This document shows, in pieces, positions 8,788 to 8,864 of a stretch of 38,904 bases of DNA. Location of the stretch: the IMG/VR virus record IMGVR_UViG_3300009509_000054. The stretch is one strand, 5' to 3'. Source of the stretch: a virus. The notes beneath the pieces were generated by a model. It saw nothing but the letters and a program-made list of their open reading frames with translations, searched no databases and was not told the DNA's origin. How positions within the stretch are numbered: the stretch's first letter is position 1; each line of letters starts with the position of its first letter. Position numbers and translations under genes: made by a program.

Positions 8788-8864
8788 TGGTGGGGCCTGT
8801 GGGACTCGAACCCACAACCTGCTGATTATGAGTCAGCTGCTCTGACCAATTGAGCTAAAGCCCC
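8788..8864 (-). tRNA. tRNA-Met (anticodon CAT; could alternatively be tRNA-Ile2/lysidine) with genomically encoded 3' CCA
   Basis: A manual cloverleaf fold works: acceptor GGGGCTT/AGGCCCC, D-arm GCTC-AATTGGTCA-GAGC, anticodon arm GCTGA-CTCATAA-TCAGC, variable loop AGGTT, T-arm GTGGG-TTCGAGT-CCCAC, discriminator A, then CCA. The anticodon stem lacks the 3xGC of initiator tRNA, so it looks like an elongator. Confidence 0.9.

What the first reader, a model, noticed from the sequence alone, without database searches (positions are those of the whole stretch)
8788..8864. Phage tRNA-Met(CAT) with encoded CCA, partly overlapped by a CDS, plus a phage CCA-adding enzyme 18 kb away
The tRNA folds cleanly and carries its own 3' CCA. 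The same genome encodes a complete CCA-adding/repair enzyme with an HD domain (27398-28855). That pairing suggests the phage maintains or repairs tRNA 3' ends, for example to counter host anticodon- or CCA-targeting nucleases. The CAT anticodon could alternatively be lysidine-modified Ile2. The 5' 10 nt of the tRNA overlap the stop region of ORF 8855-9322, which implies RNase P processing from a polycistronic transcript.
Basis: partly seen in the sequence, partly recalled or inferred. Interest (0 to 1): 0.5.

Follow-up and report, generated by a model that had tools for sequence, protein, structure and literature searches.

The report
Huge-phage tRNA(CAU) plus CCA-adding enzyme
A real tRNA gene, more likely the AUA-reading isoleucine tRNA than a methionine tRNA, and an intact tRNA-tail-adding enzyme sit 18 kb apart on a fragment of a very large bacteriophage genome; both are known kinds of phage translation helpers and nothing shows they work as a pair.

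Summary
A canonical 77-nt tRNA(CAU) with an encoded CCA lies on the minus strand at 8788-8864 (ARAGORN; Rfam 76.4 bits). Its first 10 nt overlap the end of ORF 8855-9322, whose UAG stop is tRNA U8-A9-G10. That ORF is real, because a relative has a syntenic 155-aa homologue. ORF 27398-28855 is an intact class II CCA-adding-type nucleotidyltransferase with a complete HD domain.

- **Isotype:** the tRNA is not an initiator. It leans towards tRNA-Ile2 (G3-C70, C5-G68, closest E. coli match annotated tRNA-Ile, AUA the commonest Ile codon). G4-C69 is atypical, so elongator Met is not excluded.
- **The pairing:** a relative about 75% identical in protein keeps the CCA enzyme in the same syntenic block. 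It has no tRNA at this site: ORF155 abuts the same hairpin.
- **Role of the enzyme:** in the 735-kb huge phage with the closest phage homologue, 11 tRNAs lie 14-18 kb from the enzyme gene and none encodes CCA. Ordinary maturation explains the enzyme better than counter-defence.
- **Repair partners:** the window has no RNA ligase, kinase or RtcB.

Phage-encoded tRNA(CAU) genes and CCA-adding enzymes are both described, so this is a new member of a known kind. The adjacent major-vault-protein-like gene is the more unusual feature.

The parts
8788..8864 (-). tRNA gene, anticodon CAU, 77 nt including an encoded 3' CCA (8788-8790). The acceptor stem is G1-C72, G2-C71, G3-C70, G4-C69, C5-G68, U6-G67, U7-A66, with A73. 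It is most likely tRNA-Ile2; elongator tRNA-Met is not excluded.
   Evidence: ARAGORN; Rfam RF00005 at 76.4 bits; fold in context; isotype evidence.
8855..9322 (-). ORF155, a protein of unknown function. Its last two sense codons and its UAG stop lie inside the tRNA (positions 1-10).
   Evidence: Translation. A 42% identical homologue of the same length, P0002, lies at the syntenic position of L001. No Pfam, PHROG or NCBIfam hit.
8754..8781 (.). A 10-bp G+C-rich hairpin with an 8-nt loop between the convergent tRNA/ORF155 unit and the MVP-like gene. It is conserved in relative L001, where it directly follows the ORF155 stop codon. There is no U-tract on either strand.
   Evidence: Fold; alignment A1; not reported by the terminator scan.
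27398..28855 (-). Class II tRNA nucleotidyltransferase (CCA-adding type) with a C-terminal HD(IG) phosphohydrolase domain. Motif D reads GDPLR after a clade-specific insertion, instead of the usual [ED]DxxR.
   Evidence: Pfam, PHROG, NCBIfam, PDB alignments, 16-sequence alignment A2, conserved synteny.

Best explanation
The window is a fragment (a whole 38.9-kb metagenome contig) of a large tailed-phage genome related to the 'huge phages'. It carries two separate translation-support genes.

**1. The tRNA.** A canonical elongator-type tRNA with anticodon CAU is the last gene of a long minus-strand gene string. It lies exactly between the 3' end of ORF155 and a conserved hairpin. It is most likely tRNA-Ile2. 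On that reading the host TilS would convert C34 to lysidine, IleRS would charge the tRNA, and it would read AUA. AUA is the commonest Ile codon of this phage, at about 28 per 1000 codons.

The tRNA is probably co-transcribed with ORF155. RNase P would release it at G1 (U at -1), and the 3' end would be trimmed back to the encoded CCA. RNase P cleavage would also remove ORF155's stop codon from that transcript.

**2. The enzyme.** The CCA-adding/HD enzyme is a conserved gene of the clade. Its simplest role is to add CCA to CCA-less tRNAs, which are the norm for related phages, and to mend frayed or 3'-phosphorylated ends. It is not specifically tied to this tRNA.

**Shown:** gene integrity, the overlap, synteny, motif conservation, codon usage and acceptor-stem features. 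**Inferred:** lysidinylation and charging, processing, enzyme activity and the host.
For: **tRNA integrity:**

**Not an initiator:** G1-C72 is paired, 11-24 is C-G, and the anticodon stem is GCUGA/UCAGC.

**Evidence for Ile2**
- Silva et al. 2006 classified the CAT tRNA genes of 234 bacterial genomes. They report that G3, A3, C70 or T70 are not found in Met or fMet genes and indicate Ile(CAT), and that C5-G68 is frequent in Ile(CAT). This tRNA has G3-C70 and C5-G68.
- 119 bacterial tRNAs and 41 IMG/VR tRNAs share its D-stem and anticodon arm. In the bacterial set, 109 of 119 have a 3-70 pair other than C-G, 115 of 119 have C4-G69, 103 of 119 have C5-G68, and all have A73.
- The best E. coli matches are annotated tRNA-Ile. 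Bit scores are 64 for the prophage tRNA-Ile(CAU), 48 for ileY and 41 for metT/metU. Identities are 0.80, 0.76 and 0.66.
- AUA is 36.6% of Ile codons, 27.5 per 1000 codons against 17.6 for AUG. Relatives show the same pattern.

**Overlap and indel**
- ORF155 has a syntenic homologue of the same length. In that relative the stop codon abuts the same hairpin and no tRNA is present.
- TAG is an ordinary stop codon here, used by 9 of 39 ORFs.

**CCA enzyme**
- Invariant GGxVRDE, D50/D52, E110, RRD141-143, D191/R194, and H284, H305-D306, H326, H358, D398.
- The gene lies in a conserved block in L008-L012.
- 448 phage records encode homologues.
- LR756501 has 11 CCA-less tRNAs 14-18 kb from its homologue. 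About 28 of 31 tRNAs near the MVP-like genes of related contigs lack an encoded CCA.

**Phage context**
- Coding density is 96% and nearly all genes are on one strand.
- The MVP-like protein matches only huge phages LR756500/501/503 in the phage collection, and the CCA enzyme's best phage match is LR756501/503, at 44-45% identity.
- Relatives sit on contigs up to 436 kb and carry tRNA arrays.

**Literature:** huge and jumbo phages are already known to encode CCA-adding enzymes.
Against: - G4-C69 departs from the C4-G69 seen in 115 of 119 bacterial and 38 of 41 viral look-alikes. C4-G69 is a positive TilS determinant in E. coli. Whether the unknown host's TilS accepts this tRNA cannot be told. 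If it does not, the tRNA would be charged by MetRS and read AUG.
- tRNAscan-SE isotype models could not be run, and no labelled elongator-Met set from candidate host phyla was available.
- The look-alike sets were selected on 28 nt shared with the query, so only their acceptor stems count as independent evidence.
- All other contigs carrying the tRNA are at least 99.96% identical to the window. There is therefore no comparative evidence that the tRNA is under selection.
- The CCA-family assignment is below the NCBIfam equivalog cut-off (238 against 438.8 bits). Motif D lacks its first acidic residue. CCA, CC, A or poly(A) specificity is therefore unproven.
- No capsid, portal or terminase gene was identified in the window. 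Four large ORFs have no match in the phage collection.
Confidence: 0.6

Rival explanations
1. The tRNA is an elongator tRNA-Met that supplements AUG decoding, as labelled by anticodon.
For: ARAGORN calls it Met from the anticodon. The most similar annotated phage tRNAs are labelled tRNA-Met, although those labels are mostly anticodon-based. G4-C69 is not the Ile2-typical C4-G69. An unmodified tRNA-Ile(CAU) behaves as tRNA-Met.
Against: G3-C70 was not seen in Met or fMet genes across 234 genomes. The tRNA is closer to E. coli tRNA-Ile(CAU) genes than to metT/metU. Its anticodon arm is shared with a large family carrying the Ile2-type acceptor stem. AUA codons outnumber AUG.
Confidence: 0.27
2. 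One reading: the tRNA and the CCA/HD enzyme form a functional module. It maintains or repairs tRNA 3' ends against host nucleases or toxins that target the anticodon or the CCA end.
For: The HD domain is complete. The enzyme aligns over the HD region with the E. coli-type 'multifunctional CCA addition/repair protein' model (NF008137, query 132-431). A jumbo-phage review interprets phage CCA enzymes as RNA-end repair.
Against: The two genes are 18.5 kb apart and are not linked in relatives. The enzyme is kept where the tRNA is absent. The window has no RNA ligase, PNK, RtcB or Thg1. The tRNA encodes its own CCA. Related phages carry mostly CCA-less tRNAs, which makes plain maturation sufficient.
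Confidence: 0.12
3. The tRNA is an initiator tRNA-fMet.
For: It has a CAU anticodon and an encoded CCA. A paper title reports that bacterial initiator tRNA genes template CCA at high frequency; that paper was not read.
Against: G1-C72 is a Watson-Crick pair rather than C1xA72. Pair 11-24 is C-G, not A-U. There is no G29-G31:C39-C41 run (criteria).
Confidence: 0.01
4. The contig is not a phage but part of a bacterial chromosome, a plasmid or another giant element, so 'phage tRNA' is a misnomer.
For: There is no DNA match to 50,697 phage records. Four large ORFs have no tblastn match. Most ORFs have no PHROG hit. No capsid, portal or terminase was recognised. The exact tRNA is absent from IMG/VR.
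Against: Two proteins match the curated huge phages LR756500/501/503. The 349-aa protein gives tail and baseplate fold matches. The window has collagen-like fibre proteins, 96% coding density on one strand, relatives with a Mom-like gene and relatives on 100-436-kb contigs with tRNA arrays and a suppressor tRNA.
Confidence: 0.1

Closest known systems
Bacterial tRNA-Ile2 (E. coli ileX/ileY; lysidine at C34 made by TilS)
   Same: CAU anticodon, A37/A38, A73, U12-A23 and C5-G68. Identity to ileY is 76%, against 66% to metT/metU. The D-stem and anticodon arm are identical to at least 119 bacterial tRNAs that carry the Ile2-type acceptor stem.
   Different: It has G4-C69 instead of C4-G69. The anticodon-stem pair is U29-A41 rather than the C29-G41 of E. 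coli (the E. coli pair is from my own knowledge). Modification and charging are untested.
Phage- and prophage-borne tRNA-Ile(CAU), such as the E. coli prophage Ile-Arg-Thr-Gly cluster and the tRNA-Ile of phage T4 (the T4 case is from my own knowledge)
   Same: A rare-codon (AUA) decoder carried by a phage. It is 81% identical to the prophage tRNA annotated tRNA-Ile. 41 IMG/VR contigs carry tRNAs with the same anticodon arm.
   Different: It stands alone rather than in a tRNA cluster, and its 5' end overlaps a coding sequence.
CCA-adding enzymes of huge and jumbo phages (Al-Shayeb et al. 2020; Iyer et al. 2021)
   Same: It has the same domain set. It is 44% identical over 97% of its length to the enzyme of the 735-kb phage LR756501. 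The function is listed for huge phages and jumbo phages.
   Different: The window's clade has GDxxR with a 4-6-residue insertion in motif D. The gene lies between conserved proteins that look structural, not beside tRNAs.
E. coli Cca, the multifunctional CCA addition/repair protein with an HD domain
   Same: A class II head domain plus an HD domain with all metal-binding residues. The NF008137 model aligns across query 132-431.
   Different: The score is far below the equivalog cut-off (129 against 451 bits). The best full-length model is the actinobacterial type TIGR02692, also below its cut-off (238 against 438.8 bits).
Phage T4 tRNA repair (Pnkp plus Rnl1 against the PrrC anticodon nuclease; from my own knowledge)
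   Same: It shares only the idea of a phage countering tRNA damage.
   Different: No polynucleotide kinase/phosphatase or RNA ligase is present in the window. A CCA enzyme cannot reseal anticodon breaks.

Membership tests
tRNA (Rfam RF00005) | Covariance-model score at or above the gathering threshold, with a full cloverleaf | tested here: met
   76.4 bits against 29, model positions 1-71 of 71; ARAGORN; the minimum-free-energy fold is the cloverleaf.
tRNA-Ile2 (lysidine tRNA-Ile, CAU) | CAU anticodon together with acceptor-stem discriminators: a 3-70 pair that is not C-G, with C4-G69 and C5-G68 frequent | tested here: inconclusive
   G3-C70 is present, which indicates Ile according to Silva et al.. 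C5-G68 is present. The 4-69 pair is G-C rather than C-G.
tRNA-Ile2 (lysidine tRNA-Ile, CAU) | Closer in sequence to known Ile2 genes than to elongator Met genes | tested here: met
   E. coli references only: bit scores 64 and 48 (tRNA-Ile CAU) against 41 (metT/U). The top E. coli hits are annotated tRNA-Ile.
tRNA-Ile2 (lysidine tRNA-Ile, CAU) | C34 converted to lysidine by TilS, followed by charging by IleRS | not testable with these tools
   This needs tRNA mass spectrometry or in vitro TilS and IleRS assays. No TilS-like ORF is present in the window.
Elongator tRNA-Met | The C3-G70 pair usual in bacterial Met and fMet genes | tested here: not met
   The pair is G3-C70; the criterion comes.
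Initiator tRNA-fMet | C1xA72 mismatch, A11-U24, and R29G30G31:Y39C40Y41 | tested here: not met
   The tRNA has G1-C72, C11-G24 and the anticodon stem GCUGA/UCAGC; the criteria come.
Class II CCA-adding enzyme (tRNA nucleotidyltransferase) | Motif A (GGxVRD and DxD, plus the third carboxylate) and motif B (RRD) | tested here: met
   G36 G37 V39 R40 D41, D50, D52, E110 and R141 R142 D143 are invariant in alignment A2.
Class II CCA-adding enzyme (tRNA nucleotidyltransferase) | Motif D amino-acid template EDxxR | tested here: inconclusive
   D191 and R194 are invariant. The first acidic residue is replaced by Gly after a 4-6-residue insertion, in the window and its closest relatives.
Class II CCA-adding enzyme (tRNA nucleotidyltransferase) | Curated equivalog score (NCBIfam) | tested here: not met
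   TIGR02692 scores 238.3 bits against a cut-off of 438.8. The PcnB model scores 114 against 305.65. The Pfam domain cut-offs are all passed.
Class II CCA-adding enzyme (tRNA nucleotidyltransferase) | Adds C-C-A, rather than CC, A or poly(A), to tRNA 3' ends | not testable with these tools
   This needs an enzyme assay on tRNA-N73, -C74 and -CC75 substrates.
HD phosphohydrolase domain | H...HD...H...H...D metal-binding motif set | tested here: met
   H284, H305-D306, H326, H358 and D398 are invariant. Pfam HD scores 41 bits against 22. The HDIG model TIGR00277 scores 31.5 against 27.6.
Phage tRNA break-repair system (T4 Pnkp/Rnl type, or RtcB) | An RNA ligase plus end-healing kinase/phosphatase encoded with the tRNA genes | tested here: not met
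   No such Pfam family appears among 39 of the 40 main window ORFs. Only this 38.9-kb fragment could be examined.
Huge phages (Al-Shayeb et al. 2020) | Homology to curated genomes over 200 kb, and phage structural genes | tested here: inconclusive
   The MVP-like protein and the CCA enzyme match LR756500/501/503 at 44-45% identity. The 349-aa protein gives tail and baseplate fold matches. Four large ORFs have no match, no capsid or terminase was seen, and the genome size is unknown.

The most novel reading that the evidence does not exclude
The overlap may be functional rather than incidental. ORF155's stop codon lies inside the tRNA (U8-A9-G10). Every RNase P cleavage that matures the tRNA would therefore turn the ORF155 message into a non-stop mRNA. 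That would couple tRNA output inversely to ORF155 expression, through ribosome rescue and tagging.

A separate possibility concerns the enzyme. The clade-specific GDxxR variant of the CCA/HD enzyme, embedded among virion-like genes, could have an altered specificity. It might serve as a counter-defence against toxins that modify or remove tRNA 3' ends.
Probability: 0.08. Interest if true: 0.55.

Novelty: new member of a known kind. Interest (0 to 1): 0.25.

Why it matters
- **Annotation.** CAU tRNAs in phage genomes are routinely labelled Met. Here the acceptor stem, the nearest labelled relatives and the codon usage all point to the AUA decoder. That changes how the phage's codon-usage strategy is read.
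- **A caution about co-occurrence.** A tRNA and a CCA enzyme on one contig need not form a module. Comparison with relatives separates them and suggests the enzyme serves CCA-less phage tRNAs.
- **No new principle.** Neither gene reveals a new mechanism. The wider contig may repay separate study: it belongs to an uncharacterised clade with a full-length major-vault-protein homologue, a glycan-synthesis cluster and many conserved proteins of unknown function.

Tried and rejected
**Searches that found nothing**
- Megablast of window 1-25000 against the phage collection: no match.
- The exact 77-nt tRNA in IMG/VR: none.
- The search for related loci with the CCA enzyme in IMG/VR: 25 pattern hits, none confirmed.
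- tblastn of ORF155 against phages: none.
- tblastn of four concatenated large ORFs (950, 575, 349 and 598 aa) against phages: none.
- ORF155 against Pfam, PHROGs and NCBIfam: nothing.
- tblastn of ORF155 against the 79 MVP-like loci: none.

**Tests that were uninformative**
- I looked for other CAU tRNAs in the 120 bacterial loci to obtain same-genome Met controls. There were none.
- The Silva et al. supplementary alignments, needed to rebuild their three profiles, are not held.
- The tRNA is invariant in five other contigs. That says nothing about selection, because the contigs are at least 99.96% identical overall.
- A terminal-repeat test for a complete genome found none, so the contig is a fragment.

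**Ideas rejected**
- Initiator identity, from the sequence features.
- Pseudogene or att-site remnant: the tRNA is full length and high scoring.
- TAG recoding that would let ORF155 read through the tRNA: TAG terminates 9 of 39 ORFs.
- Recent capture from a sequenced host: the best bacterial match sharing the anticodon arm is only 89% identical.

Full report
**Observation**

ARAGORN reports a single tRNA in the window, at 8788-8864 on the minus strand, with anticodon CAT. Rfam's tRNA model matches 8864-8791 at 76.4 bits against a gathering score of 29, E 3.3e-15, over the whole model. It is the only Rfam match in the window. The + strand reads tgg at 8788-8790 and t at 8791, so the RNA ends ...GGCCCC-A73-CCA and the CCA is encoded.

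Folded within 166 nt of native context, the minimum-free-energy structure is the cloverleaf followed by a 10-bp hairpin (z = -3.8). The usual invariant residues are present in the alignment: U8, A14, G18-G19, U33, A37, the T-loop UUCGAGU, and C61.

ORF 8855-9322 (minus strand, 155 aa) ends ...AAA UUG GGG CUU UAG. The tRNA starts at the last G of UUG, so 10 nt are shared and the UAG stop is tRNA U8-A9-G10. All three stop codons are used in the window (TGA 15, TAA 15, TAG 9), so TAG is a normal stop.

**Is ORF155 real, and how did the overlap arise?**

ORF155 has no family match. The 5.8-billion-protein search returns one relative, P0002: 42% identical, 95% coverage, also 155 aa. P0002 lies on contig L001, which is collinear with the window. 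Its neighbouring genes are 59-79% identical in protein, and the convergent major-vault-protein-like gene is included. ORF155 is therefore a real but fast-evolving gene.

L001 has no tRNA. There the ORF155 stop codon is followed at once by ACAGATTGAGCGGCTTTGCAGCCGCCCAATC. In the window the matching hairpin (8754-8781) follows the tRNA after 6 nt. The tRNA is thus a clean indel between the 3' end of ORF155 and a conserved hairpin.

- ORF155 is absent from 79 further loci that carry an MVP-like gene. None of those loci has a tRNA(CAT).
- This favours gain of the tRNA in the window's lineage, but with two lineages the direction cannot be proved.
- Five other contigs carry the same tRNA. They are at least 99.96% identical to the window over 6-19 kb. 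They show the arrangement is stable across samples but add no evolutionary evidence.

**Which tRNA is it?**

It is not an initiator. G1-C72 is paired, 11-24 is C-G rather than A-U, and the anticodon stem (GCUGA/UCAGC) has no G29-31:C39-41 run. The criteria are those restated by Silva et al. 2006.

Between elongator Met and Ile2 the evidence leans towards Ile2.
- **Published discriminators.** Silva et al. classified the CAT tRNA genes of 234 bacterial genomes. They found that G3, A3, C70 and T70 are absent from Met and fMet genes, which usually have C3-G70, and 'indicate a tRNA-Ile gene'. They also found C4-G69 and C5-G68 to be very frequent in tRNA-Ile(CAT). The window tRNA has G3-C70 and C5-G68.
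- **Look-alike tRNAs.** A pattern made of its D-stem and anticodon arm found at least 120 species genomes, mostly Bacteroidota, Ignavibacteria, Zixibacteria, WOR-3 and Acidobacteriota. The acceptor stems of those 119 tRNAs were not part of the pattern. They are G-C (90), U-A (12), A-U (7) or C-G (10) at 3-70, C-G in 115 at 4-69, C-G in 103 at 5-68, and A73 in all. This is the published Ile2 signature. The same pattern in IMG/VR gives 41 viral tRNAs with the same signature.
- **E. coli references.** In 5,426 E. coli genomes the listed top hits are annotated tRNA-Ile. The best is a prophage tRNA-Ile(CAU) in an Ile-Arg-Thr-Gly cluster. Local scores are 64 bits (prophage Ile), 48 (ileY) and 41 (metT/metU). 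Identities are 0.80, 0.76 and 0.66.
- **Codon demand.** AUA is the most used Ile codon in 39 of the window's ORFs: 36.6% of Ile, 27.5 per 1000 codons, against 17.6 per 1000 for AUG. Relatives show 35-40%.

Against Ile2, the 4-69 pair is G-C, which none of the 119 bacterial or 41 viral look-alikes shows. C4-G69 is a positive determinant for E. coli TilS, although not for the Aquifex enzyme. If the host TilS rejected this tRNA it would act as tRNA-Met. I put Ile2 at roughly 0.65-0.7.

**The CCA-adding enzyme**

ORF 27398-28855 (485 aa) passes the Pfam cut-offs for PolyA_pol, PolyA_pol_RNAbd, HD and tRNA_NucTran2_2. It matches PHROG 2244 'tRNA nucleotidyltransferase' at 1e-58. It aligns end to end with NCBIfam TIGR02692 (CCA tRNA nucleotidyltransferase), but at 238 bits against a cut-off of 438.8.

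In an alignment with 15 homologues at 41-76% identity, the following residues are invariant:
- motif A: G36 G37 V39 R40 D41, D50 and D52;
- E110;
- motif B: R141 R142 D143;
- the templating D191 and R194;
- the HD set: H284, H305-D306, H326, H358 and D398.

One departure is worth recording. The 'EDxxR' template reads G-D-P-L-R here, preceded by a 4-6-residue insertion. This holds in the window and its closest relatives. Specificity (CCA, CC, A or poly(A)) is therefore inferred, not shown.

**Are the tRNA and the enzyme a pair?**

The evidence says no.
- The enzyme gene sits in a conserved block (950-166-279-173-349-...-CCA-63-128-575 aa). Relatives with enzymes 76% (L008/L009) and 58% (L010-L012) identical keep that block, and no tRNA lies within 10 kb.
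- L009 and the tRNA-less L001 come from the same sample. Both are about 70-80% identical in protein to the window. They most likely belong to one relative that keeps the enzyme but lacks this tRNA.
- The tRNA encodes its own CCA, so it does not need the enzyme for maturation.
- In LR756501, the 735-kb huge phage whose enzyme is the best phage match (44% identity over 97%), 11 tRNAs lie 14-18 kb from the enzyme gene and none encodes CCA. About 28 of 31 distinct tRNAs near the MVP-like genes of related contigs also lack CCA. Adding CCA to the phage's own tRNAs is thus a sufficient and ordinary role, with end repair a plausible extra given the intact HD domain.
- No RNA ligase, polynucleotide kinase, RtcB or Thg1 was found in the window.
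- Homologues occur in 448 phage records. The function is already listed for huge phages and jumbo phages, where it is read as restoring CCA ends.

**Is it a phage?**

Direct support is thinner than the finding's title implies.
- There is no DNA match to the phage collection.
- Most ORFs have no PHROG or Pfam family.
- Four large ORFs have no tblastn match in phages.
- No capsid, portal or terminase was recognised.

The positive evidence is as follows.
- Coding density is 96%, with all but two of 39 ORFs on one strand. Many ORFs overlap at their start and stop codons or have Shine-Dalgarno-like motifs upstream.
- The window encodes collagen-like fibre proteins.
- The MVP-like protein matches only the curated huge phages LR756500/501/503 in the phage collection, and the CCA enzyme's best phage match is LR756501/503.
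- MVP-like relatives lie on contigs of 100-436 kb with tRNA arrays and a suppressor tRNA.
- Relatives carry a Mom-like gene.

The window equals the full length of its source contig and has no terminal repeats, so it is a fragment. I rate 'large tailed phage related to the huge phages' at about 0.85-0.9.

**Mechanism (inferred)**

No sigma-70-like promoter is found on the minus strand between the tRNA and 9800. The scan is consensus-only and the host's promoter type is unknown. The tRNA is therefore probably transcribed with ORF155 and the genes upstream of it. RNase P would cut between U(-1) at 8865 and G1 at 8864. The 3' side would be trimmed back to the encoded CCA, 6 nt before the hairpin.

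The hairpin has no U-tract on either strand and was not called as a terminator. It may act as a processing or stability element, or as a weak bidirectional terminator.

RNase P cleavage removes ORF155's last two codons and its stop codon. Each transcript can therefore yield either a properly terminated ORF155 message or a tRNA plus a non-stop mRNA. This is a logical consequence of the overlap, not an observation.

**Verdict**

The isotype is more likely Ile2 than Met, and the repair-module idea is unsupported and better replaced by ordinary tRNA maturation. Both elements are new members of known kinds, so interest is low to moderate (0.25). The more unusual things on this contig lie outside the finding and are listed under things noticed in passing.

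Noticed in passing
window 6242-8734 (+): An 830-aa major-vault-protein-like gene is one of only two large + strand ORFs and is convergent with the tRNA. Pfam gives MVP_shoulder at 3.7e-29 plus Vault_3. It aligns collinearly with rat and human MVP (query 452-769 to MVP 466-816, E 3e-17). In the phage collection it matches only huge phages LR756500/501/503, at 44-45% identity over 97%. It has 79 relatives on metagenome contigs up to 436 kb. I found no paper linking MVP to huge phages.
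   Followed up: partly
window 27398-28855 (-), residues about 183-194: Motif D of the CCA enzyme reads GYPPVG-DPLR. The first acidic residue of the conserved EDxxR nucleotide template is replaced by Gly after a 4-6-residue insertion. The window's closest relatives share this; more distant homologues do not.
   Followed up: partly
L217 (LR756501.1) 2451-6389; loci L138-L211: The 735-kb huge phage has 11 tRNAs (4 CAT, Ile-TAT, 3 Gln, 3 Glu) 14-18 kb from its CCA-enzyme gene, and none encodes CCA. About 28 of 31 tRNAs near the MVP-like genes of related contigs also lack CCA.
   Followed up: partly
L176 5263-5336: A related large contig carries a predicted suppressor tRNA with anticodon TTA. This hints at stop-codon recoding in part of this clade. 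The window itself uses all three stop codons.
   Followed up: no
window 352-4132 and 16144-25041 (-): A sugar-modification and glycosylation gene set lies among fibre-like genes. It comprises a DegT-type aminotransferase (3017-4132), a hexapeptide acetyltransferase (1419-2114), four glycosyltransferase-like ORFs (352-1275, 17916-18953, 18950-19585, 24334-25041) and a 592-aa protein with three tandem SAM-methyltransferase domains (16144-17922). This may mean virion glycosylation.
   Followed up: no
window 35802-36401 (+): A LAGLIDADG-like ORF lies on the opposite strand inside the minus-strand gene string (Pfam LAGLIDADG_3, 4e-5). It is conserved at the same position in relatives L008 (63% identity) and L010 (52%).
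   Followed up: no
[not shown]
   Followed up: partly
whole window; L001, L008, L010: Codon usage is unusual for about 46% G+C. AUA is 35-40% of Ile codons and AGA+AGG are 60-69% of Arg codons, in the window and its relatives.
   Followed up: partly
window 11822-13618, 13824-15764, 19654-20484, 21026-23416 (-): Several large fibre-like proteins are present. They show collagen-like G-X-Y stretches, Gly-rich repeats, a repeated GSVNT.NV.SGAI.SGK unit and long Pro/Thr linkers. The only PHROG hits are weak tail-fibre matches to the collagen repeats.
   Followed up: no
L002 17876-18070, L001 15308-15496 (window equivalent near 1253-1447, minus strand): Gene calls on near-identical and related contigs show a small ORF (62-64 aa) with a precomputed Pfam Hc1 hit (chlamydial histone-H1-like family), next to the acetyltransferase gene. 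I did not verify it in the window.
   Followed up: no
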